Source: a virus (taxonomy: Duplodnaviria > Heunggongvirae > Uroviricota > Caudoviricetes). Taken from it: DNA of 64,000 nucleotides. How positions within the stretch are numbered: position 1 is the first letter of the stretch; every line of letters begins with the position of its first letter. A program made the translations under genes and the position numbers. This document shows positions 16,595 through 33,557 of this stretch, piece after piece. Below the pieces are notes generated by a model. The model was not told the DNA's origin. It saw only the letters and a list, made by a program, of their open reading frames with translations, and searched no databases. Where the stretch lies: positions 512-64,511 of IMG/VR virus record IMGVR_UViG_3300043568_002650. One strand, given 5' to 3'.

Positions 16595-16602
16595 GTTTTA
16601 TT

Positions 16603-16675
16603 GCTTTCGTAGCTCAGTCGGTAGAGTGCCTCACTTGTAATGAGGATGTCATCGGTTCGAACCCGGTCGAAAGCT
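16603..16675 (+). tRNA. trnT: tRNA-Thr(TGT)
   Basis: cloverleaf, loop CTTGTAA. Confidence 0.95.
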
Positions 16676-16733
16676 CAAAAGATTGTTGAACTTCAATCTA
16701 AAAAAAATGTTCTTTGACATATTGGCTTTAAAT

Positions 16734-16804
16734 TTTCCCCTCGTCTAACGGCAGGACACGTGGTTTTGGTCCACGGAATCGAGGTTCGAATCCTTGGGGG
16801 AAAA
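16734..16804 (+). tRNA. trnQ: tRNA-Gln(TTG)
   Basis: cloverleaf, loop TTTTGGT. Confidence 0.93.
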
Positions 16805-16810
16805 CAATAA

Positions 16811-16896
16811 GGAAGTTTAATTAAGCTGGCGCTTAACCTAGTCTTGAAAACTAGTGGTACTGAAATATGTATGGGGATCGATACCTCAGGCTTCCT
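16811..16896 (+). tRNA. trnS: tRNA-Ser(TGA)
   Basis: long variable arm, loop CTTGAAA. Confidence 0.88.
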
Positions 16897-16958
16897 CAAA
16901 AGCGATCCACTGTGCGCTATATAAAAAGTCTTGCTTCGGCATGCTACACAGTGGACAA

Positions 16959-17031
16959 CTAGGCATGGGAAAGTTGGTAATCCGCGTGGTTTGGGACCAC
17001 GAGACCGCAGGTTCGAGCCCTGCTGCTTAGA
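16959..17031 (+). tRNA. trnP: tRNA-Pro(TGG)
   Basis: cloverleaf, loop TTTGGGA. Confidence 0.93.
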
Positions 17032-17127
17032 CGATATGGCTCATTTAGAAGTATTTTATGGATCAAATACTAGTCTAAATGAGCCATAAGTAGAAACAAG
17101 ATGATCCACAAATAAAAAATTAAACTC

Positions 17128-17346
17128 ATGGAGACAACCGTAATTAAAAAAGAGCTTTATAAACAAAAGCCTATTGCAAAATTAAAATTCATCAGATTAG
17201 GAGTAGCTTATTATTCAGCCCCAATTGAACATGAAAGTAAAACAGTAGATATTGAATTTCAAGTTCCAATTACAGACATGGGAGATACTGATTTTTATCC
17301 ATTAATGGATGCAAAATTATTAAACAGATACATCACAAACCTTTAA
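17128..17346 (+). CDS. hypothetical protein inside tRNA array
   Basis: 72 aa ORF with A-rich leader. Confidence 0.7.
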   Translation: METTVIKKELYKQKPIAKLKFIRLGVAYYSAPIEHESKTVDIEFQVPITDMGDTDFYPLMDAKLLNRYITNL

Positions 17347-17399
17347 AAAAATCCAAAGATTATGGAAAGTGACAAGAGCGACAAGAGTCGCAAACGAGA

Positions 17400-17474
17400 G
17401 ATCTCGTAGCTCAGTTGGTTTAGAGCACCTCACTTTTAATGAGGGAGTCGTGGGTTCGAGCCCCACCGGGATCA
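17400..17474 (+). tRNA. trnK: tRNA-Lys(TTT)
   Basis: cloverleaf, loop CTTTTAA. Confidence 0.95.
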
Positions 17475-17478
17475 CACA

Positions 17479-17600
17479 TGGGGAAGAATGCAAAACAATT
17501 CGCTCTTTTGCCGTTCTTCAGCAATGATAGTAATTAAAGAGTTTCATCGCAATTAAACAGTAAATTTAATGATTTGGCCCTAAGAAGCCCTTCCCCACCA
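17479..17600 (+). ncRNA. candidate CCA-ending structured RNA upstream of TROVE gene
   Basis: TGGGGAAG/CTTCCCCA stem then CCA; AATGCAAAA shared with the 19759 RNA. Confidence 0.5.
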
Positions 17601-17667
17601 ATTCAATAAACACAAATTTGTATCAATAAACTAGTCCTGTTTATTGTAACAAAAATGAGTTTATTAT

Positions 17668-17740
17668 GCACCTTTAGCTCAGCTGGTAGAGCGCTTGTTT
17701 TACATGCAAGATGTCACAGGTTCGATCCCTGTAGGGTGTA
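17668..17740 (+). tRNA. trnV: tRNA-Val(TAC)
   Basis: cloverleaf, loop TTTACAT. Confidence 0.95.
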
Positions 17741-17839
17741 CAAAACCTTTTTCGAAAAAAGTTTAAGCAAAAAGTGAAACTATCAGTTTTTATATTGTAT
17801 AGTATTAATCACAAAACAAAAAATTAATTCCTTGTACTA

Positions 17840-19468
17840 ATGACAAAGTTTAGAAACGACAAACTTCGTTCGACGCTAGCTGGAATGCAGCCTCAAGCGA
17901 ATCTGGTAGAAGCGGTGAAAATCCCAAAACCAGACACTAAGAATCGTCAAGGACATGCAGCTTATTCACAAGATAAGTGGCTTAGACTCTTGACGATGTT
18001 AAACACACTAAAGCTAGAAAATCAATTCTATCGTTCTGAGACAGAAACGATGAGGGAGTTGAAAGGACTAGTCGATGAGTGTGCAAAAGAAGACGCTTAC
18101 TTCGTAGCTCAATCTATCGTGTATTCACGATGTGTTGGTGAAGGAATGAGATCAATTAACCACCTTGCGGCAAGCTACCTAGCTCCACACTGTGCGGGTC
18201 AAGAATGGGCAAAACGTTTCTATTCCCTATGGAACAAACGTACTCAATCCGGAGGAACATTATTTCGTCCAGATGATATGGCTGAAATCGTTGCATGCTT
18301 CTCAGCATTAAACGGGACTAAAGTCACAAATGCAATGAAAAAAGGATTTGCTGATGCTCTTGAAAACTTAGATGCTTATGCATTACTAAAATACAAGAGC
18401 TCTCTAGTTGACGTAATCAACTTAGTTCACCCAAATCCATCAGCGTCTAGTGCAGTAGCAGAGGTAAATGGAGAAAAAGTTCCAGTTCTTTCGGCTATCA
18501 TGAAAGGCTTATCAGTATCTGCGGATACTTGGGAAGTTGCTCAGTCTGATGCAGGTCAAGAAGTTGCGAAAGCAGTTAAAGAAGGTAAAATCGACAAGTC
18601 AGAAGCTGAAACTATCCTAAAGGAAGCTAAGGCTGAAAACTGGGATGCTCTTTTAACTGACGGTAAACTTGGAATCCTAGCTGCTCTTCGAAATATTAGA
18701 AATGTATTGAAGACAGTTAACAAAGGAGACACGGTTACTAAATTGACTGCTCTTTTATCTAGTCCAGATGCAATCCGAAAAGGAAAGATTATGCCATACC
18801 AAATTGACCTAGCTCACGAGGTAACGATCTCAGAATTCTCTGATTCTAATGCTAGAGCGATTGCACAAGCATTACTTAAAGGATATGAAGCAGCTGTGCC
18901 AAACCTTTCAGAGATGCTTCCTGGTAAGACTCTAGTAATGGTGGATTTCTCTGGATCAATGGGTACACCAATGACGGATGGCGCAAGAAGCGGAAAACGT
19001 TATACTAGTCGATGCATGGATAAAGCGGCTTTGATCGCAGCAACCATTGCAAAGGCAACAAATGGAGATGTAATCCGATTTGGTTCAAGTGCTGAATACG
19101 TAAAATGGAACGCTAACTCTGATGTATTCTCTATTGCTAGCGCAATGAAGAGAGATATGGGAGGAACTAACTTATCAGCAGCATGGGCAGTAGCTCAAAT
19201 GTCTGGACGTCAGTACGACCGAGTGTTCATCTTATCTGATAATGAGTGTAACCGTGGAAACTCTTACAAAGCATACGAGACATACACAAAAGCATGCGGA
19301 AGCCCATACGTTTACTCGGTGGATCTAGCAGCTTACGGAACGACTCAACTTGCTGGAGATAAAGTTCGTTTCTACTATGGATACGGATACTCAATGTTCG
19401 ATGATATCGCAAAAAGCGAGTTCAATCCAAATTATCACTTAGAGAAAGTTCGCAAGATCAAAATCTAA
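17840..19468 (+). CDS. rsr: TROVE/vWA RNA-binding protein (Ro60/Rsr family)
   Basis: helical TROVE-like region (LKYKSSLVDVINLVHP, ALRNIRN, IMPYQI) and vWA MIDAS VDFSGSM...GGTNL...FILSDNE. Confidence 0.85.
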   Translation: MTKFRNDKLRSTLAGMQPQANLVEAVKIPKPDTKNRQGHAAYSQDKWLRLLTMLNTLKLENQFYRSETETMRELKGLVDECAKEDAYFVAQSIVYSRCVGEGMRSINHLAASYLAPHCAGQEWAKRFYSLWNKRTQSGGTLFRPDDMAEIVACFSALNGTKVTNAMKKGFADALENLDAYALLKYKSSLVDVINLVHPNPSASSAVAEVNGEKVPVLSAIMKGLSVSADTWEVAQSDAGQEVAKAVKEGKIDKSEAETILKEAKAENWDALLTDGKLGILAALRNIRNVLKTVNKGDTVTKLTALLSSPDAIRKGKIMPYQIDLAHEVTISEFSDSNARAIAQALLKGYEAAVPNLSEMLPGKTLVMVDFSGSMGTPMTDGARSGKRYTSRCMDKAALIAATIAKATNGDVIRFGSSAEYVKWNANSDVFSIASAMKRDMGGTNLSAAWAVAQMSGRQYDRVFILSDNECNRGNSYKAYETYTKACGSPYVYSVDLAAYGTTQLAGDKVRFYYGYGYSMFDDIAKSEFNPNYHLEKVRKIKI

Positions 19469-19480
19469 ATAAAAAATAAG

Positions 19481-19564
19481 ATTGCTGGGTGGCAAGTTAC
19501 AGAGTTACTTCTTTATATCTGAAACATAAAACCAAAATACTCTCGACAGTATTCCCCCAGCAAT
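19481..19564 (+). ncRNA. Y-RNA-like RNA 1 (minimal)
   Basis: 9-bp ATTGCTGGG/CCCAGCAAT stem, interrupted helix, TTACTTC motif, 13 nt after TROVE stop. Confidence 0.6.
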
Positions 19565-19571
19565 TTTTTAT

Positions 19572-19675
19572 AGTCAGGTGGCGGAATGGTAGACGCTACA
19601 TTAATGGGTGGATAGTGTGCCATTGGGGAAGAACCATAAAAGTTACACATATGGGTTCGATTCCTGTCCTGACTA
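19572..19675 (+). ncRNA. AGTCAGG-family tRNA-like RNA B
   Basis: near-copy of 15448-15551 with compensatory GCGT/ACGC to GTGT/ACAC change. Confidence 0.7.
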
Positions 19676-19696
19676 CAAAAAAATATTAAGAATAAT

Positions 19697-19728
19697 TTTA
19701 AACGTAAAAGGATTCTTAGTATTATAAT
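19697..19728 (+). promoter_or_regulatory. middle-class promoter TTTAA(A/T)-N19-20-TATAAT (also 13173, 13687, 59434, 60679)
   Basis: five + strand copies with AGTATTATA(A/G) core and near-constant spacing. Confidence 0.6.
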
Positions 19729-19758
19729 CAAGTAAACAAGTTCTTTGAAAAAAATTAA

Positions 19759-19889
19759 TTATCGGGTAGTAATGCAAAAGGTTACTTCTTAGCTCAGCGG
19801 TTGAGCAATTTTCTTAAACAAAATAGGCCGCGGGTTCAATTCCCGCAGAAGCGCGAAAGCGTTACACCTTTGCAACTTTCTCCTGATAA
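19759..19889 (+). ncRNA. Y-RNA-like RNA 2 with embedded tRNA-like cloverleaf
   Basis: TTATCGGG/CCTGATAA stem, bulged TGCAAAAGGT/ACCTTTGCA helix, D arm, CTTAAAC loop, T arm. Confidence 0.7.
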
Positions 19890-19895
19890 ACTTAT

Positions 19896-20034
19896 TAAAG
19901 GTAATAGTAATCTAAACCGTTACTTCGTCTGTTAAACGAGAGGTCGTTGGTTCGAATCCAACATGGGGAGTAATCTTCATTAGCTCAGCTGGCTAGAGCG
20001 CTAAAATCTCGGTTGGAAACTTTCTTTACCTTTA
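19896..20034 (+). ncRNA. Y-RNA-like RNA 3 with circularly permuted tRNA-Asn(GTT)
   Basis: TAAAGGTAA/TTACCTTTA stem; order: anticodon arm, T arm, ATGGGGA-GTAA-TCTTCAT closed acceptor, D arm. Confidence 0.75.
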
Positions 20035-20040
20035 TCATTT

Positions 20041-20245
20041 GGAAGATATTCCCTCAGTTATGAGCTAATAGCAGTTTATTCTAGTTTCCTATAAAACTAG
20101 AGGTGCTGTTGACTGGGGCCAGAATCAGTTAATGCCTTTTTAGAGAGCGAAGAGTTTGGAAGCGAAGCTCTACCTTTGATCAGATGCTAGCATGAAGATC
20201 AAGCATAAGAGGCCGGAAGATGGAATGTAAGCCGGCCTCTTTTTT
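20041..20245 (+). ncRNA. candidate structured ncRNA ending in a GC hairpin plus U tract
   Basis: TCTAGTTT/AAACTAGA, TTGACTG/CAGTTAA, TTGATC/GATCAA, AAGAGGCCGG/CCGGCCTCTT. Confidence 0.4.
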
Positions 20246-20259
20246 AAAATCAATTTATT

Positions 20260-20338
20260 GGAGTGTTGAGCATTTGGCTGGCTCGCTTGACTGTAAATCA
20301 AGTCCTAACGGCATGGGGGTTCGAATCCCTTCACTCCA
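20260..20338 (+). tRNA. trnY: tRNA-Tyr(GTA)
   Basis: variable arm, loop CTGTAAA. Confidence 0.92.
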
Positions 20339-20341
20339 ACG

Positions 20342-20478
20342 AAAGATAGTGGCCTTCTCTGTCGATGCTGTCGACAAGCTAAGCAGATCAAAGAATTTCA
20401 TCACCCTTTGCTGAGGCCTCATTAAAACTCAGGAAGCAATTAAGATTGGAGCGAGACGGGTACTCCATCACTATCTTT
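20342..20478 (+). ncRNA. candidate structured spacer ncRNA
   Basis: perfect 10-bp AAAGATAGTG/CACTATCTTT closing stem with internal hairpins. Confidence 0.55.
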
Positions 20479-20487
20479 TATTTTTTC

Positions 20488-20561
20488 GGTCTGTCAGTCC
20501 AGTTGGAGTGGACGCCTGCCTGTCACGTAGGAGATCACGGGTTCGAGTCCCGTACGGACCG
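20488..20561 (+). tRNA. trnD: tRNA-Asp(GTC)
   Basis: cloverleaf, loop CTGTCAC. Confidence 0.95.
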
Positions 20562-20614
20562 CCGGGAATATTTTGTACCTTCATTGAGATAAATAATCAA
20601 AATGAAGGTACACT

Positions 20615-21271
20615 ATGGCAAGAAAGGAACATCAATATCATTACATTTACAAGACTACTTGTAATGTTACTGGAAGATATTACATCGGGATGCACTCGAC
20701 TTCTAACTTAGAAGATAGATATATTGGAAGCGGGACTAGATTATGGAAGTCACTCAATAAACATGGAAAGGAGAATCATTCAATTGAAATATTAGAATGG
20801 TATTCAGATAGAAATTCATTGAAACTAAGAGAAAAAGAATTAGTTAATGAGGAAACTCTTAATGATCCAATGTGTATGAATTTAATGATTGGTGGAGGAG
20901 GTGGAAAAATATCAGACGAGCAACAAAGGTCTAGATCAATCACTGGAGGTCGTGCATTTGCTAATAAATTAAAAAGTGATCCTGAGTTATTAAAACACGT
21001 TCAAATGATTGCATCAAATAACTTGAAAAAATTACATGAGAAAGGAGATTTCAATTATAATACTTTTCAAGGAAAGACGCATTCCGATGAGACTAAAAAT
21101 AAAATTGGAGCAGCAAATTCAATTAAGCAGAGTGGATATAATAATTCACAATATGGAACTTGTTGGATAACTAATGAAATTGATTCTAAGAAAATTCATA
21201 AGGGCGATCTTATCCCAAGTGGATGGAGATTAGGTCGAAAAGCCCTCAAAATAAGAAGTCGTAACTCCTAG
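20615..21271 (+). CDS. GIY-YIG homing endonuclease with NUMOD3-like motif (Seg-like)
   Basis: YIYKTTCNVTGRYYIGMHST...YIGSG; GKTHSDETKNKIG. Confidence 0.88.
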   Translation: MARKEHQYHYIYKTTCNVTGRYYIGMHSTSNLEDRYIGSGTRLWKSLNKHGKENHSIEILEWYSDRNSLKLREKELVNEETLNDPMCMNLMIGGGGGKISDEQQRSRSITGGRAFANKLKSDPELLKHVQMIASNNLKKLHEKGDFNYNTFQGKTHSDETKNKIGAANSIKQSGYNNSQYGTCWITNEIDSKKIHKGDLIPSGWRLGRKALKIRSRNS

Positions 21272-21301
21272 TAAAAACCTAGGCTAATTTCTTGTTTATC
21301 T

Positions 21302-21377
21302 GGACTCATAGCTCAATTGGTAGAGCATCGCACTGTTAATGCGAGGGTTGTAGGATCGTGCCCTGCTGAGTCCGCCA
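21302..21377 (+). tRNA. trnN: tRNA-Asn(GTT)
   Basis: cloverleaf, encoded CCA, atypical T loop ATCGTGC. Confidence 0.9.
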
Positions 21378-21389
21378 AAAATTGAATAT

Positions 21390-21463
21390 ATCCATGTATT
21401 TCAGCTGGTTAGAATATCACCCTGATAAGGTGAAGGTCGAAGGTTCAAGTCCTTCCATGGATA
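21390..21463 (+). tRNA. trnI: tRNA-Ile(GAT)
   Basis: cloverleaf, loop CTGATAA. Confidence 0.93.
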
Positions 21464-21519
21464 CAAAGGGGAGTAACTTGCGTGGGTGCCCCAAGTGCTG
21501 CAGCATTACCACGCTCTAC

Positions 21520-21611
21520 GGAAATGTGTCAGAGTGGTTTATTGTACTTCCCTGCTAAGGAAGTGGTCGCTGCAAAGAGGCCCGTTGGTTCGAATCCAGC
21601 CATTTCCGCCA
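21520..21611 (+). tRNA. trnS: tRNA-Ser(GCT)
   Basis: long variable arm, loop CTGCTAA, encoded CCA. Confidence 0.95.
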
Positions 21612-21614
21612 AAC

Positions 21615-21684
21615 ATCGTGACTTAGTGGAAAAGAACGAGCTCTCATAAGGCACGTCAAGTGAGTTCGAACCTCACGCACGATA
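21615..21684 (+). tRNA. degenerate tRNA(CAT)
   Basis: good T arm and CTCATAA loop; weak D and anticodon stems. Confidence 0.55.
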
Positions 21685-21702
21685 CTAAAAAATAAAAAAA
21701 TT

Positions 21703-21858
21703 ATGAAAGTAATAATGACAGGAAATTTCGAATCATCTAAATTGATGCTTCGAGGAAGAGACCCATCGCCCAAAGGACGAAAGGGATGGCGTAGTCGGGC
21801 CGCACAAGTCTGCATCAAGTTTACGAATAAATTGACGAAGGCCAAGTCAATGGTGTAA
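21703..21858 (+). CDS. small basic hypothetical protein (51 aa)
   Basis: A-rich leader; below the ORF-track size cutoff. Confidence 0.45.
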   Translation: MKVIMTGNFESSKLMLRGRDPSPKGRKGWRSRAAQVCIKFTNKLTKAKSMV

Positions 21859-21891
21859 ATCGACTCTCCCCACTTACGGAGTGGGGTTTAT

Positions 21892-21966
21892 GGTGGTTGT
21901 AGCTCAGTTGGTTAGAGCGCTGGTTTGTGGTACCAGAGGTGGTGGGTTCGAGACCCATCTTCCACC
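21892..21966 (+). tRNA. trnH: tRNA-His(GTG)
   Basis: G-1:C73, loop TTGTGGT. Confidence 0.9.
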
Positions 21967-21979
21967 CAAAAAACAAAAT

Positions 21980-22062
21980 GCCTCGATGGTGGAATTGGTA
22001 GTCACGTCGTGTTTAAGCCGCGATATCTTTAAGGTGTGAGGGTTCGACTCCCTCTCGAGGTA
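21980..22062 (+). tRNA. trnL: tRNA-Leu(TAA)
   Basis: variable arm, loop TTTAAGC. Confidence 0.9.
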
Positions 22063-22064
22063 CT

Positions 22065-22183
22065 AAAGGAATGGTAAGTGAAGCTGTTAGGTACGATAAG
22101 GTTTAATCACCCAAAGCATTAAAAAAAGGGTTTGGAGTAAACGTACAAACCAGAAACCCCGAGAGACCCGAGGCCATTCCTTT
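22065..22183 (+). ncRNA. candidate structured spacer ncRNA
   Basis: perfect 10-bp AAAGGAATGG/CCATTCCTTT closing stem. Confidence 0.5.
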
Positions 22184-22188
22184 TCTTT

Positions 22189-22262
22189 ACACCTTTAGCT
22201 CAGCTGGATAGAGTCTCTGATTACGGATCAGATGGTCGGGAGTTCGAATCTCTCAAGGTGTA
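22189..22262 (+). tRNA. trnR: tRNA-Arg(ACG)
   Basis: cloverleaf, loop TTACGGA. Confidence 0.93.
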
Positions 22263-22308
22263 CTCTTATAGAATCCGATGTCGGTCCCGATCTAGGTCGG
22301 GCAAATAC

Positions 22309-22381
22309 ACAGACATAGCTCAGTTGGTAGAGCACTGGTCTCCAAAACCAGGTGTCGGGAGTTCGAGCCTCTCTGTCTGTG
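22309..22381 (+). tRNA. trnW: tRNA-Trp(CCA)
   Basis: cloverleaf, loop CTCCAAA. Confidence 0.95.
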
Positions 22382-22388
22382 CTCAATT

Positions 22389-22464
22389 GGTGAAGTAGCA
22401 AAGCTGGTCTATGCAGCGGACTGAAAATCCGATGATGGCGGTTCGACTCCGTCCTTCACCACCA
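22389..22464 (+). tRNA. trnF: tRNA-Phe(GAA)
   Basis: cloverleaf, loop CTGAAAA, encoded CCA. Confidence 0.93.
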
Positions 22465-22482
22465 AAAGCCAATATGTTTCAT

Positions 22483-22552
22483 GGTCAGGCTAGTCGCGGC
22501 GGCTAGTTGGTCTGCAAAACCACCGGAGTGAGTTCGACTCTCACCCTGACCT
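22483..22552 (+). tRNA. trnC: tRNA-Cys(GCA)
   Basis: loop CTGCAAA, U73; atypical D arm. Confidence 0.88.
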
Positions 22553-22573
22553 CTTTTTAATATGTCTCCTCAG

Positions 22574-22580
22574 ATAAATA
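22574..22580 (+). promoter_or_regulatory. T4-like late promoter (G/T)ATAAATA (also 106, 3317, 5272, 5712, 13513, 16370, 20589, 28586; - strand near 32225, 34140, 36418, 38320, 39310, 42958, 63323)
   Basis: recurrent ATAAATA 10-40 nt before starts; resembles the T4 late promoter TATAAATA. Confidence 0.7.
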
Positions 22581-22598
22581 ATAAAAAGTCTTATTGGG

Positions 22599-24278
22599 TT
22601 GGCACCTTTTCATATATTTGCAAAGAAAAATGCAAAGAAACTTTCAAATTTTAAAGTAGGAGTTAGCCTACGAATAAAGATAAAATTAGCAATTGCTGCA
22701 ATTCTAATGATTGCATATATGTGCGTTAAAATTTCAATTCTTGCTGGATTGCGTGAGTCTACTGAGGTTACTCGATGGATAGAATTTGTTGGTGTTATTT
22801 CATATATTCTAATATCAATCCTATTAATTAAAGACTTTATCAATTTAACTAAACATTCAGTATCTAAGGAATCTATTGATAAGATGAGTGAGTTAGAAAA
22901 TTTCTTAGACTCTTCGTCAATTATATCTAAGGCTGATGCTAAAGGTAAAATTACTTATGTAAATGATAAATTCACTAAGGTTTCTGGTTACTCACTAGAA
23001 GAAGTGCTTGGAAAAGATCACTCTATTGTAAATTCAGGAGATCAACCTGATGGATATTGGGGAAAAATGTATGCTCAAGTTCTTACTGGAAAAATATGGA
23101 ATGATGTAGTCACAAATAGAGCAAAGGATGGCTCTCTATATTATGTAGATACTTATATCAAAGCTCAATTTAATCAGCATGGTAAGCTTGAAGGATTTAT
23201 GTCGATTCGCCAAGATGTTACTGAGCTACGAAGAAGGGAGGCTGAGATATCTAATAGAATGAATGCAATTAATAGATCAAATGCTGTTATTGAATTTGAC
23301 CTAGATGGAAATATTAAATTTGCAAACGATTTATTTTTAAAAACATTAGGCTACTCCTTAAATAGTGAAATTATAGGAAAACACCATAGTTTATTTGTTG
23401 AAGATGAAGTAATAGATACTGATGAATATCGAGACTTTTGGAAAACATTGGGCACTGGCAAATTCTTTATGGGAGAGATCACTCGAAAGAAGAAAGACGG
23501 ATCACTAATCTATCTTCAAGCAACATATAATCCTATTATAGGCACTGATGGAAAGCCATATCGAGTAATGAAAATCGCTACTGATATTACTCAAAGTTTT
23601 AATCAACAAGCTGAAATTGAAAAGAAGAATACTTATCTTGAGCATGCGGCAAAGATTCTACGGCATGATATGCATAGTGGAATCAATACCTATATGCCTC
23701 GAGGATTATCATCACTAGAACGAAGACTTTCAGATGACCAGATAAAAGAGCTTAAGATTGAAGCTCCACTAAAAATGATTAAAGAAGGATTACGACACAC
23801 TCAAAAAGTATATAAAGGAGTTTACGAATTTACTAATCTAGTAAAAAAGGATGTTGTTCTTACTCGCGAAGACTTAAATCTCAAAGACATACTCGAGGAC
23901 TATTTGTCCTCGACTGCATATAGACCGCAAGTAATAATCTCAGATCTAGGTCAGTCTAGTGTTAATGAAGCATTATTTTGTACTTCATTAGATAATCTTA
24001 TTCGTAATGGTTTAAAGTATAATGACAGTCCTAGTAAACTAGTTAAGATATACCGTATTGATGATATTCTTTATGTTGAAGACAATGGACGCGGTTTAAG
24101 CCAAGAAGATTTTAACCATCTTTCCAAACCATATACACGAAAAGAAGGACAGCAGGAATCAGGAACTGGTCTTGGGCTTAATATCTGTATTGCAATTCTT
24201 GAAGAACATGGATTCTCTATTACTTGTTCTAAACTTTCACAAGTTGGAACGCAAATGAAAATACGACTAAGCAGATAA
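22599..24278 (+). CDS. PAS/PAC sensor histidine kinase
   Basis: 2 TM helices, two PAS-PAC units, H box RHDMHSG, N box DNLIRNGLKY, G1 EDNGRG, G2 GTGLGL. Confidence 0.92.
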   Translation: MAPFHIFAKKNAKKLSNFKVGVSLRIKIKLAIAAILMIAYMCVKISILAGLRESTEVTRWIEFVGVISYILISILLIKDFINLTKHSVSKESIDKMSELENFLDSSSIISKADAKGKITYVNDKFTKVSGYSLEEVLGKDHSIVNSGDQPDGYWGKMYAQVLTGKIWNDVVTNRAKDGSLYYVDTYIKAQFNQHGKLEGFMSIRQDVTELRRREAEISNRMNAINRSNAVIEFDLDGNIKFANDLFLKTLGYSLNSEIIGKHHSLFVEDEVIDTDEYRDFWKTLGTGKFFMGEITRKKKDGSLIYLQATYNPIIGTDGKPYRVMKIATDITQSFNQQAEIEKKNTYLEHAAKILRHDMHSGINTYMPRGLSSLERRLSDDQIKELKIEAPLKMIKEGLRHTQKVYKGVYEFTNLVKKDVVLTREDLNLKDILEDYLSSTAYRPQVIISDLGQSSVNEALFCTSLDNLIRNGLKYNDSPSKLVKIYRIDDILYVEDNGRGLSQEDFNHLSKPYTRKEGQQESGTGLGLNICIAILEEHGFSITCSKLSQVGTQMKIRLSR

Positions 24279-24886
24279 TGACAAAAATCCTTCACTTATT
24301 CTTCTTTCTTTTTTTATCATTTTTATCATACACACAAAATGACTACCCAGTTCAAACTGTTTTGAAAGGTGATTCTGTGGTAATCTATACAGTTGAGCAA
24401 AATAATGATATAGAGTTTCTTTTAGCAAACCAGAGAAACCGTGTAAACTATTTTAAAAATAATATTGCTAGACAAGAAGAGATTATTGATAGTCTAAATC
24501 GGCTAGTACAAAAGCAAAAACTTTTTGCTGACAGTTTACAGCTGATCCTAAACACAAATTCTAGTGATTATGATAGTTTATATGCAAAGTATCGCAATAC
24601 AGAAAAATGGCTTTATAATACAGCAGTTGACAATGCATTTATTTATTATTCATTTGAAAACTCTGCAGTCATGGCTATTGATTTAACCTCATATGTTTTA
24701 GTAGGTTATAAAAGATCTGGTAATTTTTTATTAGCACGCAGAGGACCAGTGTATGATGATCTGTACTGGAAAGAGTATAATCGAAACTACCCAAGTGAGC
24801 CTAACAACGATTGGCTTACCTTTTACAAAATACGTTGGAGGCCTTCGTTAGTGCAGTTTCCTTATCGAATAAACCCACAGCCATGA
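24278..24886 (+). CDS. exported hypothetical protein with coiled coil
   Basis: signal-peptide-like N-terminus MTKILHLFFFLFLSFLSYTQ. Confidence 0.75.
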   Translation: MTKILHLFFFLFLSFLSYTQNDYPVQTVLKGDSVVIYTVEQNNDIEFLLANQRNRVNYFKNNIARQEEIIDSLNRLVQKQKLFADSLQLILNTNSSDYDSLYAKYRNTEKWLYNTAVDNAFIYYSFENSAVMAIDLTSYVLVGYKRSGNFLLARRGPVYDDLYWKEYNRNYPSEPNNDWLTFYKIRWRPSLVQFPYRINPQP

Positions 24887-26331
24887 AAAAACTACTTATC
24901 ACAGCAATATTAATACTATTTGGTATTAGTTTTACAAGCGCTCAATACTCTGTAAAAGATCAAGAGAAAAAAATTGTTTGGGTTAGCGGCATACCTACCT
25001 GTCCAAGTGATCCACAAATAACGGCCTTAATCGAAAAAGCTGGACTTGAAAACTTAAAAAAGCCTAAAAAAGGAATTACTAGAGCTGAATCTAATACTTG
25101 TCGGGAACTCGGTAAAGTGTTTAACCAAAGGGAAATGTATGAAGGTGCAGATTGGTATCTAGAGAGAGTGAAAGGTTATGTTGAAGTTATTAATTTAGCA
25201 CCTGATGCAGTATTTGAAATGCCAAAGGAAATTGAGGAAATGCCATTATCCGAAGATAATGTAAAATCATTAGAGTCAGATAAAGCATTCTTAGAAAATC
25301 TCCCACAAAGCTACGATGACGTTTCCCCTAATGACATGAAAAAACTTGCTAGTGAAATTGGAAATAAACTAAAAGCTCTAATTGCAGAAAAGGAAGCTCT
25401 ACTCACAAGTCATGCTCCGCAAGAAGTAATCGACGTAAAGGACGCTACTATTGGAACTCTTGGAAAAGAGAAAAAAATTATCGATCTATCAATTAAAAAA
25501 GATGGATTGGAAGTTGAAGTTGATGACTTAGAAGTTGAAAAGAAAACTTTGACCAAATGGTTATGGTTGTCATGTGCAAGTATATTAGTCGCTTTCTTAG
25601 GGATCATTGCACTACTTCAAAGAAAAACAATTAAAGTAAAAGACGGTGAGATTGAAAGACAGCTGGCAGATATTAATAAAAAGAATACTTATTTAGAATA
25701 TGCGGCACGAATCATTCGTCATGATATGCATAGCGGAATCAATACTTATATGCCTCGAGGATTAAGTGGTTTACAAAAGCGAATTACTCCAGAGATTATT
25801 GCCGAACTTAAAATTGGATCCTCTATACAAATGATACAAGAAGGTCTTTTACATACACAAAAAGTTTATAAAAATGTTTATGAATTTACTAATCTTGTAA
25901 AGGTGAAATCTGAGTTTAATAAAGTGGAAATTGATGCTAAAATCTCATTAGAAAAGTACTTATCAAGCACATCGTATAGTAAACAAGTAAAGATTTTAGA
26001 TCTCGGTACACTATTAGCAAATGAACAATTGTTATGTAATGCTATAGATAATTTAATTAAGAATGGACTTAAATATAATGACCACACGATCAGAACAATC
26101 AAAATATATAAATTAAAAGATTTTATTATTGTTGAAGATAACGGCAAAGGTCTTACCTCTCAAAAATTTGAAGAGTACGTGAAAAGAGGAGTAGATATTG
26201 AAGCTGAAACAGGATTAGGTTTAGGGATTGCGAAAGCAATTATTGAAGAGCATGGATTTAAGCTATCCTGTGAAGAAATACCTTCAGGTGGAACAAAAAT
26301 GAAAATTAAAATAACAAATAATAATGATTGA
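24883..26331 (+). CDS. membrane sensor histidine kinase
   Basis: start MKKLLITAIL (signal peptide), one TM helix, RHDMHSG H box, DNLIKNGLKY, EDNGKG, GLGLGI. Confidence 0.9.
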   Translation: MKKLLITAILILFGISFTSAQYSVKDQEKKIVWVSGIPTCPSDPQITALIEKAGLENLKKPKKGITRAESNTCRELGKVFNQREMYEGADWYLERVKGYVEVINLAPDAVFEMPKEIEEMPLSEDNVKSLESDKAFLENLPQSYDDVSPNDMKKLASEIGNKLKALIAEKEALLTSHAPQEVIDVKDATIGTLGKEKKIIDLSIKKDGLEVEVDDLEVEKKTLTKWLWLSCASILVAFLGIIALLQRKTIKVKDGEIERQLADINKKNTYLEYAARIIRHDMHSGINTYMPRGLSGLQKRITPEIIAELKIGSSIQMIQEGLLHTQKVYKNVYEFTNLVKVKSEFNKVEIDAKISLEKYLSSTSYSKQVKILDLGTLLANEQLLCNAIDNLIKNGLKYNDHTIRTIKIYKLKDFIIVEDNGKGLTSQKFEEYVKRGVDIEAETGLGLGIAKAIIEEHGFKLSCEEIPSGGTKMKIKITNNND

Positions 26332-26755
26332 TTCAATTTTACTAGTGGATGACGAAAGTTTATTTCACCTAGTTTTCGAGGATGCATGTAGTCTCCTTGA
26401 TATCTCTCTTACTTTAGAGAGCATTGACAGTTCAGACGAAGCTGCGAAGCTGTTTGAAGGATGGCAAAAAGATTCAGACGGTAAACCCGAATGCGTATTT
26501 GTGGACCTAAATATTATAGGTTCATCATATGATGGAATTGAACTTATTCGTAAGATTAATTTTGAATACGGTAATAACGTAGTAATTGGAATTATCTCTT
26601 CTTCTGATGAACCGGAAGAGCAGGCAAAAGCAGTTCAATCTGGAGCACAGTTTTGGATTATTAAATCTGACGAAATAGAACCTAGATTAGAAGAGTTTAG
26701 AAATGACTATGAATCATACCGAAATAGAACAGCTCCATTTAAAATATACAGATAA
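26324..26755 (+). CDS. single-domain response regulator (receiver)
   Basis: ILLVDD, phospho-acceptor FVDLN, IISSS, IIKS. Confidence 0.92.
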   Translation: MIDSILLVDDESLFHLVFEDACSLLDISLTLESIDSSDEAAKLFEGWQKDSDGKPECVFVDLNIIGSSYDGIELIRKINFEYGNNVVIGIISSSDEPEEQAKAVQSGAQFWIIKSDEIEPRLEEFRNDYESYRNRTAPFKIYR

Positions 26756-27408
26756 TGAAGTTTAGTAGAGAAGCTATTGATTCAATTATTGCTCTAAAAA
26801 AGAGAAACATCTATTTAGAAGGAAATATTATCAAGCTCATTGAGTCAGATGATGAAGATTTCACTCAATATTTAGCTGAAGCTTTGGCTAAGGATAAAGA
26901 GAATCGTAAGCGCCGCCTTGATGTTACTAAACAAATACAGGGACAAAATTCTGAACTACTTAAAAAGAGAGCAGAAAACGAAAATCTTATGCTTGAACTT
27001 AGAGAAACTTTAGCTGAGATGGAGGAATCTAAATCTCAAATAGAATTTCAAAATACTGAACTTGTTCAGTGGAAAGAAAAGAATGAAATTATTGGAGAAG
27101 AGCTAAAGGCCGCACTAGAGCATGCAGAAAAAGCAAAAGATCTTGCTGAAACAGATTTAGACATGCTACAAAAAAGAACTCAATTTGAATTGATTGGGAC
27201 AATTGTCAAAGTTGCCTTATACGTTATTATAGGAGTCGGTGCCGTGACTACTGTCATGTATAGTATCGCTCTTTTTGCAGATAAGGACACTCAAATTATT
27301 GGATCTACGTGGAGTAACATGTTTGGGATATTATTAACTAACGCATTTTCTATAATCGGTACGATTATGGGTGTAAAATACGCTAGTGAAAAACCCAAAA
27401 AAGAATAA
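26755..27408 (+). CDS. coiled-coil protein with two C-terminal TM helices
   Basis: long heptads then IVKVALYVIIGVGAVTTVMYSIALF and MFGILLTNAFSIIGTIMGV. Confidence 0.8.
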   Translation: MKFSREAIDSIIALKKRNIYLEGNIIKLIESDDEDFTQYLAEALAKDKENRKRRLDVTKQIQGQNSELLKKRAENENLMLELRETLAEMEESKSQIEFQNTELVQWKEKNEIIGEELKAALEHAEKAKDLAETDLDMLQKRTQFELIGTIVKVALYVIIGVGAVTTVMYSIALFADKDTQIIGSTWSNMFGILLTNAFSIIGTIMGVKYASEKPKKE

Positions 27409-27422
27409 AAAAATAAATTAAA

Positions 27423-27731
27423 ATGGCTGAGAAAAAACAAACAAAGGGAAACTTATTTTTCGGATGGGAAAATATTAAGTGGTTTATTAAAGAAATTAGA
27501 GAAATGTATTCATCAAGTAATTCATATTTTTCTAAAAAGAGAATTGAATCAGGCGTAGCATTTGCAGTAGCTCAATGGGGAATGATTTTCTTCCTACTTG
27601 AGAAGCACACTGAAATGACATCTTCTGATCTTGCAATTTGGGCAGGTATTGAGTTTGCTGTATCTGGATATATCGTTAATCAGATCCAAAAGGAGAAGAA
27701 AGGGTCTTCAGATGAGTCTGAGAACTCATAA
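27423..27731 (+). CDS. small two-TM protein, holin candidate
   Basis: 102 aa, two hydrophobic helices, charged tail, directly before the endolysin. Confidence 0.55.
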   Translation: MAEKKQTKGNLFFGWENIKWFIKEIREMYSSSNSYFSKKRIESGVAFAVAQWGMIFFLLEKHTEMTSSDLAIWAGIEFAVSGYIVNQIQKEKKGSSDESENS

Positions 27732-27751
27732 TAAAAATAATACAATAACTT

Positions 27752-28579
27752 ATGTTACTAAAGAAAGGATCCTCTGGAGAGGACGTAAAAAGACTTCAGA
27801 TAAAATTAGGCCTTACTCCAGATGCGGGTGTTGCACAGTTTGGTCCAAAGACGGAATCCGCTGTTAAATCATGGCAAAAAGCAAATGGTTTAGAAGATGA
27901 TGGTATAGTAGGTGATACTACTTGGGGAAAACTATTTGGTGTAACTGATCAGATCACAGATGCAGTTACTCAAGTTCAAGGTCTTGCTCTAGATAAACTA
28001 AAGGGGCATATTGCAGAGGTAGTATTTCAACAAATCGCAGGAGTATGTAAGGCATTTAATATTACAAATAATTTAAGACTAGCTCATTTTCTTGCACAGT
28101 GTTCACATGAATCAGGTGGATTTAAAGCAGTGAGTGAAAACTTAAATTACTCAGCAGATGGACTAAAGAAAATATTTCCAAAATATTTTCCAGGAAACCT
28201 AAATGAGTCATATGCAAGACAACCTGAAAAGATTGCAAGCAGAGTCTATGGCGGTCGTATGGGAAATGGTGATGAGTCAACTAAGGAAGGTTACAAGTTT
28301 AGAGGTCGCGGATATATCCAATTAACTGGTAAAAGCAATTATGAAACATTTACTAAATTTATTGGCGAAGACTGTATTGCTAATCCTGACCTAGTTGCAA
28401 CAAAATATCCATTAGCATCAGCTGCATTCTTCTTTAATAAAAATGGACTATGGTCAATTTGTGATAAAGGAGCAGATGACACGACTGTTACTGCTGTGAC
28501 TAAAAGAGTAAACGGTGGAACGATTGGATTAGCGGATCGTATTAAACACTTTAAGGAATATTATAATCTACTTAAGTAA
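27752..28579 (+). CDS. endolysin: PG-binding domain plus GH19 glycosidase
   Basis: LKKGSSGEDVKRLQ..FGPKTESAVKSWQ..DGIVG; AHFLAQCSHESGGF; FRGRGYIQLTG; VTKRVNGG. Confidence 0.93.
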   Translation: MLLKKGSSGEDVKRLQIKLGLTPDAGVAQFGPKTESAVKSWQKANGLEDDGIVGDTTWGKLFGVTDQITDAVTQVQGLALDKLKGHIAEVVFQQIAGVCKAFNITNNLRLAHFLAQCSHESGGFKAVSENLNYSADGLKKIFPKYFPGNLNESYARQPEKIASRVYGGRMGNGDESTKEGYKFRGRGYIQLTGKSNYETFTKFIGEDCIANPDLVATKYPLASAAFFFNKNGLWSICDKGADDTTVTAVTKRVNGGTIGLADRIKHFKEYYNLLK

Positions 28580-28633
28580 AGAGGTATAAATAACAAAGGG
28601 AGAACTGGTCTCCCTTTAAAATAATTCACACCT

Positions 28634-32672: not shown

Positions 32673-33557
32673 GTGAGACAATTAAAAATTACACCAAACA
32701 ACTTGACCGGCCGAACTGATAATATCTCAAGATATTTCACAGACGTTTCAAGCTGCACAATGCTTGGTCCAGAAGAAGAATTTAGTATTGGACTACGAGC
32801 TCAACAGGGTGATGAAGAAGCCATTGAAAAATTAATTTCATCAAACTTAAGATTTGTAGTTTCTGTGGCAAAGCAGTATGCATCATCTGGTGTCCTATTA
32901 GAAGACCTAATCTGTCAGGGAAATATTGGTTTGTGTGACGCAGCTAGAATGTTTGACCCGACTCGAGGATTCAAGTTTATTTCATTTGCCGTATGGCATA
33001 TCAGAAAAGAGATCTTGTCCTACCTAAATTCAGATCACCGAACGGTTAGGATTCCTCAAAATGTACTAAATGATTTAACTAAGGTTAGACGAGCGGATGA
33101 GGTTATTCTTCAGGAAGAGGGCCGATATGGCACAGCTGATGAATTGCAAGAAACTATTTCTAAGACGGGAAAAGATTTTACAGTCGATCATATTAAAAGG
33201 ATTACTAATGCAGACACTCGATCAGTTCCACTAGAATCTGATAAACCGGATGAATATAGCGGACCGCTAGATTGGTTAAGTAGTGGAAGCACCGCTACTC
33301 AATTTACGGATGAATCTGACATGAGTGAGATGGCAAAAATTGTCCTTGCTAAATTAACAAATATTCAAAAGGATATTGTTACTCGAAGACTTGGAATAGA
33401 TGGCTGTGAACCTGAAACCTTTTCAACGATTGCAGGTAGATATGAAAGAACTCCTGAATGGGCACGAGCAATCTATGTTAAATCAATTAGAGGTATGCGA
33501 AGTAGACTAAACAGATCTCACATCACTCGAGATAGAGTAATAAATTGCGAGATTTAA
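32673..33557 (+). CDS. RNA polymerase sigma70 factor (RpoD/RpoS-like) 1
   Basis: SNLRFVVSVAKQY, DLICQGNIGL..AARMFDPTRGFKFISFAVWHIR, region 4 HTH. Confidence 0.93.
   Translation: MRQLKITPNNLTGRTDNISRYFTDVSSCTMLGPEEEFSIGLRAQQGDEEAIEKLISSNLRFVVSVAKQYASSGVLLEDLICQGNIGLCDAARMFDPTRGFKFISFAVWHIRKEILSYLNSDHRTVRIPQNVLNDLTKVRRADEVILQEEGRYGTADELQETISKTGKDFTVDHIKRITNADTRSVPLESDKPDEYSGPLDWLSSGSTATQFTDESDMSEMAKIVLAKLTNIQKDIVTRRLGIDGCEPETFSTIAGRYERTPEWARAIYVKSIRGMRSRLNRSHITRDRVINCEI

What the first reader, a model, noticed from the sequence alone, without database searches (positions are those of the whole stretch)
22599..28579. Phage two-component signalling module upstream of the lysis genes
Seen: from one late promoter, with abutting or overlapping ORFs: PAS-PAS kinase, exported protein, periplasm-sensing kinase, stand-alone receiver, coiled-coil 2-TM protein, holin-like 2-TM protein, GH19 endolysin. 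Both kinases share an atypical H box (KNTYLE.AA.I.RHDMHSGINTYMPRG). The receiver has no DNA-binding domain. Inference: phosphorelay control of lysis timing by protein contact, integrating cytoplasmic (PAS) and envelope signals; functionally analogous to T4 lysis inhibition but by a different mechanism.
Basis: partly seen in the sequence, partly recalled or inferred. Interest (0 to 1): 0.78.

Follow-up and report, generated by a model that had tools for sequence, protein, structure and literature searches.

The report
Phage sensor relay wired to lysis
An uncultured giant lake phage carries its own two sensor kinases, a small phospho-receiver and a new membrane protein directly in front of its cell-bursting genes, and comparison with hundreds of relatives suggests that these phages read the host's state to decide when to lyse, which no experiment has yet tested.

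Summary
Window 22599-28579 encodes, tightly packed on one strand:
- a 2-TM PAS-PAS histidine kinase;
- an exported protein;
- a kinase with a periplasmic domain;
- a 143-aa stand-alone receiver with all catalytic residues;
- a coiled-coil protein ending in a 2-TM hairpin ("CC2TM");
- a 102-aa membrane protein;
- a PG_binding_1+GH19 endolysin.

In 66 dereplicated relatives the invariant core is PAS-kinase, receiver, CC2TM. The second kinase and its exported partner are optional.

Cell-wall hydrolase genes lie within 2 kb of the cassette in 39 of 66 loci and nowhere else in the 10-kb flanks. In at least one relative the endolysin is 24 kb away.

New here: the CC2TM hairpin also occurs fused directly to PAS-PAS or GAF sensors, again just upstream of endolysins. 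Its N-terminal head occurs in Bacteroidota-like bacteria fused to a kinase, always beside a stand-alone receiver; one of these receivers is 72% identical to the phage's.

So head = receiver-docking input, coiled coil = transmitter, hairpin = membrane output.

Control of lysis timing is the best reading (about 0.55) but is untested. "One late promoter" is only partly supported.

No paper describing this was found. The scan has found the same module before on other DNA.

The parts
22574..22586 (+). Promoter-like motif ATAAATAATAAAA, 12 nt before the HK1 start
   Evidence: The pattern (one degenerate position allowed) has 9 copies in the window against 0.07 expected. Each lies 9-17 nt upstream of a start codon in the gene's orientation. 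The same motif precedes HK1 in close relatives. Timing class unknown.
22599..24278 (+). HK1: membrane-anchored (2 TM) PAS-PAS histidine kinase, 559 aa, TTG start
   Evidence: Pfam PAS_9/PAS_3/PAS (two stretches) and HATPase_c. TM helices at 20-52 and 57-84. PAS-A matches the FAD-binding PAS domains of MmoS (3ewk, E 1.5e-26), Aer and NifL. The catalytic core matches HK853, QseC and EnvZ. Directly upstream of the receiver, or of EXP-HK2, in all related loci.
24278..24886 (+). EXP: exported 202-aa protein, accessory to HK2
   Evidence: Hydrophobic N-terminus ending in SYTQ. No Pfam or PHROG match. Nearly always co-occurs with the second kinase. AlphaFold2 gives a signal helix, a long helix and a small beta domain, pLDDT 73. 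No fold match.
24883..26331 (+). HK2: histidine kinase with a periplasmic domain of about 200 aa between two TM segments (482 aa from ATG 24883)
   Evidence: HATPase_c. TM/signal segment 1-22 and TM 223-247. Same H box as HK1. 21 IMG/VR loci at 46-78% identity; present in roughly a third of the cassettes.
26324..26755 (+). RR: stand-alone receiver, 143 aa
   Evidence: PF00072 only. D9, D10, D61, S92 and K114 are invariant in 49 distinct homologues; mean column identity 87%. D61 and K114 align with the phospho-Asp and Lys of solved receivers. 547 IMG/VR loci. 72% identical to a bacterial-context receiver.
26755..27408 (+). CC2TM: N-terminal head, roughly 100-residue coiled coil and conserved 2-TM hairpin, 217 aa; the proposed output of the relay
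   Evidence: Follows the receiver in 66 of 66 dereplicated loci with downstream DNA. AlphaFold2 gives helix 34-174 plus a hairpin. More than 7,400 homologue clusters, all unnamed viral or metagenomic. The hairpin also occurs fused to PAS-PAS or GAF, and the head fused to HisKA-HATPase_c. Predicted complex with RR: weak support.
27423..27731 (+). HOL: 102-aa membrane protein, holin candidate by position only
   Evidence: One clear TM (41-59) and a weaker second one. No family match. Lies between CC2TM and the endolysin only in the window's lineage; elsewhere it is directly upstream of HK1 (L001) or 3-7 kb away.
27752..28579 (+). Endolysin: PG_binding_1 + GH19, 275 aa, no signal or SAR segment
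   Evidence: Pfam. phrog_181 at 2.4e-67. No hydrophobic segment.
28595..28617 (.). 9-bp-stem hairpin just after the endolysin stop; possible end of the transcription unit
   Evidence: Terminator-like scan, T-run on the minus-strand side only.

Best explanation
This is a phage-borne phosphorelay that ends in a membrane effector belonging to the lysis machinery.

Proposed sequence of events:
1. HK1, whose first PAS domain is of the flavin-binding MmoS/Aer/NifL type, reads a cytoplasmic redox or energy signal.
2. In this phage HK2, with its exported partner, reads a periplasmic signal.
3. Both kinases autophosphorylate on the His of the shared RHDMHSG box and pass the phosphate to Asp61 of the stand-alone receiver.
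4. The phosphorylated receiver docks on the N-terminal head of the coiled-coil protein CC2TM.
5. The long coiled coil, continuous with TM1, carries the change to the nearly invariant 2-TM hairpin.
6. The hairpin acts in the inner membrane to set the moment at which the holin fires and the cytoplasmic GH19 endolysin reaches the wall.

The same hairpin co-occurs with three unrelated holin candidates. I therefore favour a holin-independent action, such as a signal-gated small lesion or loss of membrane potential that triggers whichever holin is present, over specific antiholin binding.

Shown: gene content, intact catalytic residues, synteny, domain swaps.
Inferred: phosphotransfer, receiver-head docking, and every effect on the membrane or on lysis, including its sign (advance or delay).
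For: (1) All parts are intact. The receiver's DD/D/S/K residues are invariant in 49 homologues.

(2) PAS-kinase, receiver and CC2TM are contiguous in every related locus that has DNA, with receiver and CC2TM nearly abutting (1-nt overlap in the window; 0-60 nt apart in relatives). This holds for 66 of 66 loci, and also for distant relatives and four MAG contigs.

(3) In the +-10 kb flanks of 66 dereplicated cassettes, GH19 and M15 wall-hydrolase genes lie only within 2 kb of the cassette edge:
- 37 in 0-1 kb;
- 5 in 1-2 kb;
- 0 in 2-9 kb, although 34-103 flanks reach those bins.
They are found upstream or downstream, on either strand, with different genes in between.

(4) Domain swaps:
- GAF-coil-hairpin (7 members from several sources) is followed by a 77-aa 2-TM protein, a 64-aa ORF, a GH19 protein and a glucosaminidase.
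- PAS-PAS-coil-hairpin is followed by two small ORFs and a PG_binding_1+GH19 endolysin.
- Neither locus has a kinase or receiver nearby.

(5) Head-coil-HisKA-HATPase_c proteins, in four 50%-identity clusters, sit in bacterial contexts next to a stand-alone receiver in 4 of 4 places read. One cassette is kinase (same H box, 56% identical), receiver (72%), head-kinase (head 54%), with the same 1-nt receiver/head overlap.

(6) Predicted RR-CC2TM(1-150) complex: weak support. Score 0.56, best of 3 controls 0.00. The mark was reached by 58 of 80 solved complexes and 2 of 110 mismatched pairs. At 0.60 or under, only 7 of those 80 solved complexes reached it, as did both mismatches that passed. The runs agree in at least 100% of contacts; partner pLDDT at least 86.

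(7) A bona fide holin (Phage_holin_10, 57.8 bits) directly follows the endolysin in loci of the form CC2TM-endolysin.

(8) PAS-A matches MmoS at E 1.5e-26.

(9) Contigs from two lake metatranscriptome runs of one study, belonging to a relative about 90% identical, bridge HK1-RR-CC2TM-HOL-endolysin-orf76. This is consistent with expression, but DNA carry-over is not excluded.
Against: - No experiment exists on any member.
- 16 of 66 loci show no recognisable lysis gene within the available flanks. In one relative the GH19 endolysin lies about 24 kb from the cassette. Two distant trios have no annotated hydrolase within 6 kb.
- The loci are related phages, so the counts are not independent events.
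- CC2TM matches no holin family: Phage_holin_9 at E 0.02, 15 bits against a cut-off of 27. At 217 aa it is unlike typical holins.
- The complex prediction is only 'weak support' and no interface was given.
- Relatives carry a promoter-like motif directly before the endolysin, so endolysin and relay need not share a transcript.
- The near-invariance of the receiver and hairpin could equally reflect a conserved host target.
Confidence: 0.55

Rival explanations
1. CC2TM is a classical antiholin or holin partner: its hairpin binds the phage holin in the membrane, and the receiver switches that binding on or off.
For: It lies immediately next to the endolysin and to holin candidates. It has the 2-TM, N-in/C-in layout typical of class II holin/antiholin pairs (own knowledge).
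Against: The hairpin is nearly invariant, yet it co-occurs with three unrelated holin candidates: the 102-aa ORF, the 77-80-aa 2-TM protein and Phage_holin_10. It is also found in loci with no recognisable holin nearby. A specific binder would be expected to vary with its partner.
Confidence: 0.15
2. The relay controls a membrane function unrelated to lysis, such as superinfection exclusion, host respiration or transport. It merely sits in a region where late membrane and envelope genes cluster.
For: About a quarter of loci have no lysis gene nearby, and one has the endolysin 24 kb away. No holin family match. A different 2-TM protein follows CC2TM in one lineage.
Against: Wall hydrolases in the flanks are confined to within 2 kb of the cassette, in several different arrangements. 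The two sensor-hairpin fusion architectures in other phage lineages are also just upstream of endolysins.
Confidence: 0.2
3. The phage copies a host signalling cassette in order to interfere with it: the phage receiver or kinases cross-talk with the host's kinase / receiver / head-kinase pathway, and CC2TM is a decoy or sink.
For: A bacterial-context cassette has a receiver 72% identical, a kinase 56% identical with the same H box, and a head domain 54% identical. Kinase relatives are named from Bacteroidota/Cytophagales. The receiver is the most conserved gene of the cassette.
Against: The phage encodes its own complete input-to-output chain, and the trio is never split. The bacterial cassette is rare: only 4 hits in about 185,000 species genomes, all looking like mis-binned phage contigs, and about 22 metagenomic clusters for the head-kinase. 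Most hosts would therefore lack the supposed target.
Confidence: 0.1

Closest known systems
T4 lysis inhibition (holin T, antiholins RI and RIII)
   Same: Signal-dependent resetting of the lysis clock by phage-encoded proteins acting at the inner membrane, with both a periplasmic and a cytoplasmic input (own knowledge of the T4 system).
   Different: T4 uses direct binding of small antiholins to the holin's soluble domains. It has no kinase, no receiver and no phosphorylation. No T4-type lysis proteins were recognised in the PHROG or Pfam scans of the cassette.
LytSR two-component system controlling the holin/antiholin-like LrgAB and CidAB proteins of Firmicutes
   Same: A two-component system linked to holin-like membrane proteins and cell lysis (own knowledge).
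   Different: LytSR is bacterial and acts through transcription via a LytTR DNA-binding regulator, with a multi-TM LytS sensor. Here the receiver has no output domain, the kinases are PAS or periplasmic types, and the link is by protein contact in a phage.
Single-domain response regulators acting by protein contact (CheY-FliM, DivK-DivL/PleC, CpdR, Spo0F)
   Same: A receiver-only protein with all catalytic residues, whose output must be binding to another protein.
   Different: The proposed target is an undescribed head domain at the tip of a coiled coil that ends either in a 2-TM hairpin (phages) or in a histidine kinase (bacteria).
MmoS / Aer / NifL flavin-binding PAS redox sensors
   Same: HK1's PAS-A matches the MmoS tandem PAS structure 3ewk at E 1.5e-26, and also matches Aer and NifL PAS domains.
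   Different: Flavin binding is not shown. The downstream pathway is unrelated.
Pam3 gp28-type holins (Pfam Phage_holin_10) and GH19 endolysins
   Same: The lysis genes beside the cassette are ordinary members: GH19 endolysin in the window and Phage_holin_10 in relatives.
   Different: The window itself has no Phage_holin_10 gene. Its holin candidate is the unclassified 102-aa ORF.

Membership tests
Classical two-component system (class I histidine kinase + receiver) | HATPase_c catalytic domain with N, G1 and G2 boxes | tested here: met
   PF02518 in both kinases. Matches HK853, QseC and EnvZ structures. DNLIRNGLKYND, EDNGRG and GTGLGL are visible in the sequence.
Classical two-component system (class I histidine kinase + receiver) | Dimerisation/phosphotransfer helix with an H box recognised as HisKA | tested here: inconclusive
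   No HisKA-type Pfam model matches, even at E<=10. A conserved His sits in RHDMHSG, in the register of SHELRTPL, and is shared by both kinases, all relatives and the bacterial homologue.
Classical two-component system (class I histidine kinase + receiver) | Receiver with acidic pair, phospho-Asp, Ser/Thr and Lys | tested here: met
   D9, D10, D61, S92 and K114 are invariant in 49 sequences. D61 and K114 align with solved receivers.
Classical two-component system (class I histidine kinase + receiver) | Phosphotransfer from kinase to receiver | not testable with these tools
   Needs a biochemical assay.
Flavin-binding PAS redox sensors (MmoS/Aer/NifL) | Sequence membership of the PAS-A domain | tested here: met
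   3ewk E 1.5e-26; Aer 1e-18; NifL 5e-14.
Flavin-binding PAS redox sensors (MmoS/Aer/NifL) | Bound FAD and redox response | not testable with these tools
   Needs purified protein.
Holins (for CC2TM and for the 102-aa ORF) | Match to a described holin family | tested here: not met
   CC2TM hairpin: Phage_holin_9 at E 0.02, 15 bits against a cut-off of 27. 102-aa ORF: no match.
Holins (for CC2TM and for the 102-aa ORF) | Small membrane protein encoded next to the endolysin | tested here: inconclusive
   The 102-aa ORF fits, but only in the window's lineage. CC2TM is adjacent to a wall hydrolase in 39 of 66 loci, but it is 217 aa with a 145-aa cytoplasmic domain.
T4-type lysis inhibition (RI/RIII/T) | Homologues of T, RI or RIII | tested here: not met
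   No such PHROG or Pfam hits for any cassette protein.
LytSR-LrgAB type | LytTR DNA-binding output and LytS-type sensor | tested here: not met
   The receiver has only PF00072. The kinases hit only PAS and HATPase_c.
GH19 endolysin | Glyco_hydro_19 catalytic domain with a cell-wall-binding domain | tested here: met
   PF00182 and PF01471 above cut-off; phrog_181 at 2e-67.

The most novel reading that the evidence does not exclude
The conserved 2-TM hairpin is a new class of signal-gated lysis trigger with exchangeable input modules: a receiver-docking head, PAS-PAS or GAF. On this reading, thousands of freshwater phages carry a modular sensory 'lysis clock' that reads host redox or energy state and envelope signals. 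The receiver-docking head domain would be an undescribed way for single-domain response regulators to control coiled-coil-coupled outputs, in bacteria as well as phages.
Probability: 0.35. Interest if true: 0.85.

Novelty: new variant of a known kind. Interest (0 to 1): 0.72.

Why it matters
Lysis timing sets burst size and phage fitness. The known ways of adjusting it after infection are few and rely on small antiholins.

A phage-encoded phosphorelay feeding a dedicated membrane effector would be a different principle: active sensing of the host's redox or energy state and of the envelope by the virus itself.

The family is very large. The membrane protein has more than 7,400 clusters at 90% identity, and the receiver is found at 547 IMG/VR loci, mostly in lake metagenomes. 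It could therefore affect how abundant freshwater Bacteroidota are killed.

The domain swaps also define two undescribed signalling modules that can be tested directly: the receiver-associated head and the 2-TM output hairpin.

Tried and rejected
- Isolated phage genomes: no nucleotide or protein match to the cassette.
- Six-frame PF00072 search of the window's own record found nothing, although the ORF passes Pfam's cut-off. I treat this as a sensitivity limit of that search.
- Sigma-70-type promoter scan: fewer sites than in shuffles, so uninformative.
- Protein Atlas look-ups for CC2TM, the 102-aa ORF and EXP: only unnamed viral clusters. There was a 0.90 lead to DUF2644 for the 102-aa ORF, which I did not pursue.
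- EXP structure (pLDDT 73) has no credible fold match in the AlphaFold DB clusters.
- No fold search was run on the CC2TM model, because a single long helix is uninformative.
- RNA evidence: no RNA holder was listed for the whole stretch. Two RNA runs holding a small share were laid. They hold a relative, not this phage, and being contigs they cannot show transcript ends or exclude DNA.
- Head-FecCD fusion P0180 (a single 1.5-kb contig) and P0159 (a 798-bp contig with a glycosyltransferase hit) were set aside as probable chimeras or spurious hits.
- CC2TM as the sole holin: rejected, because a Phage_holin_10 gene follows the endolysin in CC2TM-endolysin loci.
- CC2TM as a membrane anti-sigma factor for the phage sigma factor (32673-33557): no evidence was found and the idea was not pursued.
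- Literature: five full-text searches found no paper on a phage-encoded two-component system linked to lysis. The jumbo-phage survey PMC7824862 mentions only a different, kinase-independent receiver variant.
Full report
CONTEXT

The window is part of a 128.5-kb IMG/VR virus record estimated at 51% complete, so it comes from a jumbo phage. Near-identical DNA is held by many lake-water metagenomes. Immediately upstream of the finding lies an array of 25 tRNA genes, 13725-22553. No isolated phage genome matches the region at the DNA or protein level.

OBSERVATION

The seven ORFs are as described.

Pfam:
- HK1 (22599-24278): two PAS domains and HATPase_c.
- HK2: HATPase_c.
- 26324-26755: Response_reg only.
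- 27752-28579: PG_binding_1 plus Glyco_hydro_19; also phrog_181, endolysin, 2e-67.

Hydropathy adds:
- HK1 has two N-terminal TM helices.
- HK2, most likely starting at ATG 24883, has a signal/TM segment, about 200 periplasmic residues and a second TM.
- CC2TM (26755-27408) has two C-terminal TM helices.

AlphaFold2 makes CC2TM a short head, one helix from residue 34 to 174 and a TM hairpin, pLDDT 86.

Genes overlap by 1, 4, 8 and 1 nt, then are 14 and 20 nt apart.

Both kinases carry the same H-box region. No HisKA-type Pfam model recognises it, although the catalytic core aligns with HK853, QseC and EnvZ.

The receiver aligns with solved receivers, with D61 at the phospho-Asp and K114 at the conserved Lys.

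PROMOTER CLAIM

A 13-nt motif, ATAAATAATAAAA, lies 12 nt before the HK1 TTG, which supports that start codon. The pattern occurs 9 times in the window against 0.07 expected, each copy 9-17 nt before a start codon on the gene's strand.

It resembles the T4 late -10 element TATAAATA (own knowledge). The genes behind it are functionally mixed or unknown, so 'late' is unproven.

Inside the cassette there are only 2-mismatch copies, before the 102-aa ORF and the endolysin. In relatives where the endolysin directly follows CC2TM, a 0-1-mismatch copy sits at that junction, so the endolysin may have its own start site.

Contigs from two lake metatranscriptome runs (one study) belong to a relative about 90% identical that lacks EXP-HK2. 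They bridge HK1-RR-CC2TM-HOL-endolysin-orf76. This is compatible with expression as one unit, but contigs cannot show a single transcript and DNA carry-over is not excluded.

COMPARATIVE ANATOMY

The receiver has 547 related loci in IMG/VR; the 80 best are 78-99% identical. HK2 has only 21, at 46-78%.

tblastn of all cassette proteins against 100 fetched loci, dereplicated to 68 loci with a receiver, shows:
- A PAS kinase is always directly upstream of the receiver, or of EXP-HK2.
- CC2TM is directly downstream in all 66 loci that have DNA there.
- EXP and HK2 travel together and are present in roughly a third of loci.
- The 102-aa ORF lies between CC2TM and the endolysin only in the window's own lineage. 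Elsewhere it sits directly upstream of HK1 (L001) or several kb away.

The receiver is the most conserved gene: mean column identity 87% over 49 distinct sequences, with D9, D10, D61, S92 and K114 invariant.

In CC2TM, the head (about residues 18-68) and especially the loop and TM2 (179-210) are nearly invariant, while the middle of the coiled coil varies in sequence and length.

Four hits in about 185,000 species genomes are MAG contigs of inconsistent phyla with the same kinase-receiver-CC2TM order. They are probably binned phage DNA.

LINK TO LYSIS GENES

I measured distances from the cassette edges (first kinase start to CC2TM end) in 66 dereplicated loci.
- GH19 or Peptidase_M15_3 genes in the flanks lie only close by: 37 within 1 kb, 5 within 1-2 kb, and none in the seven further 1-kb bins, although 34-103 flanks reach those bins.
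- 39 loci have a wall hydrolase within 2 kb.
- 44 loci have some lysis-type gene within 2.5 kb.
- 16 loci have none recognisable.

The arrangements differ:
- CC2TM-endolysin with a 14-24 nt gap, followed by a 55-aa Phage_holin_10 gene (PF23987, 57.8 bits) and an N-terminally anchored coiled-coil protein.
- CC2TM-102-aa ORF-endolysin.
- Endolysin, with or without M15 peptidase, 1.7-4.8 kb upstream of the receiver on either strand.
- M15 peptidase plus an 80-aa 2-TM protein convergent on CC2TM.

Against a universal link:
- In the record of L054 the GH19 gene is about 24 kb from the cassette, with only a small TM ORF beside it.
- Two distant trios have no annotated hydrolase within 6 kb.
- Three loci carry an HK2-like kinase without a receiver nearby.

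DOMAIN SWAPS (the main new result)

A profile of CC2TM against 1.8 billion representatives finds 254 clusters. Several have other architectures.

(a) P0141: GAF + coiled coil + the same hairpin.
- 7 members from ENA, JGI, Logan and NCBI.
- Its gene is followed by a 77-aa 2-TM protein (77% identical to the one beside the M15 peptidase in L038), a 64-aa ORF, a GH19 protein and a glucosaminidase.
- No kinase or receiver is nearby.

(b) P0178: two PAS domains resembling HK1's + coiled coil + hairpin.
- It is followed by two small ORFs and a PG_binding_1+GH19 endolysin.
- It is a single contig, so less secure.

(c) P0236, P0256, P0266, P0267 and relatives: the CC2TM head + coiled coil + canonical HisKA + HATPase_c, without TM helices.
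- These lie among ordinary bacterial genes (homogentisate pathway, glutamine synthetase, AraC-type regulator).
- In 4 of 4 places read they are next to a stand-alone receiver.
- In L110 the order is kinase (301 aa, identical H-box core, 56% identical to HK1's core), receiver (143 aa, 72% identical) and head-kinase (head 54% identical), with the same 1-nt receiver/head overlap as in the phage.
- Full-length relatives of the head-kinase number about 22 clusters. One is named from a Bacteroidota MAG, and the kinase domains resemble those of Cytophagales.

Reading of the swaps:
- The head always travels with a stand-alone receiver, so it is the receiver-facing input.
- The coiled coil is the transmitter.
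- The hairpin is an output that can be driven by a receiver-bound head or directly by a PAS or GAF sensor.
- The phage trio probably derives from a Bacteroidota kinase / receiver / head-kinase cassette in which the second kinase was replaced by the hairpin. The direction of this change is inferred.

PREDICTED BINDING

Receiver against CC2TM(1-150): weak support.
- Score 0.56, best of 3 controls 0.00.
- The mark was reached by 58 of 80 solved complexes and 2 of 110 mismatched pairs.
- At 0.60 or under, only 7 of those 80 solved complexes reached it, as did both mismatches that passed.
- The runs agree in at least 100% of contacts; partner pLDDT at least 86.
- No interface was reported.

Because the pairing was likely beforehand from invariant adjacency in phages and bacteria, I count this as modest support.

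SENSING

HK1's first PAS domain matches the flavin-binding PAS domains of MmoS (3ewk, E 1.5e-26), Aer and NifL. This fits a redox or energy signal. It agrees with a lead from earlier notes of this scan on other genomes.

HK2's periplasmic domain and EXP have no recognisable family or fold. What they sense is unknown.

MECHANISM AND RIVALS

The best-supported chain is: sensor kinases, then receiver~P, then the head of CC2TM, then the coiled coil, then the hairpin in the inner membrane, then a change in when the holin fires and the cytoplasmic endolysin is released.

The endolysin has no signal or SAR segment, so it needs a holin.

The nearly invariant hairpin accompanies three unrelated holin candidates, and sometimes none. 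I therefore favour a holin-independent membrane action, for example a gated lesion that lowers the membrane potential. From established work on lambda S, such loss of potential triggers holins prematurely (own knowledge). I prefer this to specific antiholin binding.

Rivals:
- a true antiholin;
- a membrane function unrelated to lysis;
- interference with a homologous host pathway.

None is excluded. The sign of the regulation is unknown.

KNOWN SYSTEMS AND NOVELTY

- It works like T4 lysis inhibition in purpose and like CheY or DivK in receiver logic.
- It recalls LytSR-LrgAB in linking a two-component system to holin-like proteins.
- It is a member of none of these (see the membership table).
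- Five full-text searches found no description.
- This scan has met the same module on other genomes before, with similar readings.

Particular to this window and session are:
- the second, periplasm-facing kinase with its exported partner;
- the distance analysis;
- the sensor-hairpin and head-kinase fusions;
- the bacterial sister cassette.

VERDICT

- Observation: confirmed.
- Class: new variant of a known kind.
- Interest: 0.72.

Noticed in passing
window 13725-22553: Array of 25 tRNA genes ending 45 nt before the cassette. It is interrupted by a Ro60/TROVE-like gene (17840-19468, phrog_850) and a homing endonuclease (20615-21271) that carries the same upstream motif. Other notes of this scan cover the RNA island.
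   Followed up: no
window 106, 5272, 5712, 20589, 22574 (+); 32219, 34133, 36413, 42952 (-): Recurring motif ATAAATAATAAAA: 9 copies against 0.07 expected, each 9-17 nt upstream of a start codon. Probably a phage promoter class with very short leaders. The copy at 5712 lies inside ORF 5676-6056, whose true start may be later.
   Followed up: partly
window 3343-4722: A second GH19-containing protein of 459 aa (phrog_181, 3e-24). It may be a virion-associated or accessory lysin.
   Followed up: no
window 9988-11322: The thymidylate synthase ORF is 444 aa. It matches a 335-position profile over residues 1-341, with a second family matching in two stretches, which suggests an insertion or extension.
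   Followed up: no
window 32673-33557: Phage-encoded sigma factor (phrog_351, 5e-45), divergent from a block of minus-strand genes that carry the same upstream motif.
   Followed up: no
L110:179-2523 and L109:700-2169: Bacterial-context cassettes of kinase, stand-alone receiver and 'head'-coiled-coil-histidine kinase. The L110 receiver is 72% identical to the phage receiver. This looks like an undescribed receiver-controlled kinase architecture in uncultured Bacteroidota.
   Followed up: partly
L054:11129-11653 and homologues; L018:12699-13007: A 2-TM protein of about 170 aa with a Pro/Glu/Val-rich tail directly follows CC2TM in one lineage. It also lies near a lone HK2-like kinase in L018. 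Function unknown.
   Followed up: partly
L006:14355-14972 and homologues: An N-terminally anchored coiled-coil protein of about 200 aa lies downstream of the endolysin and Phage_holin_10 gene. It is i-spanin-like by layout only.
   Followed up: no
L016, L017, L018: HK2-like periplasmic kinases (46-47% identical) occur without any receiver or CC2TM within 10 kb.
   Followed up: no
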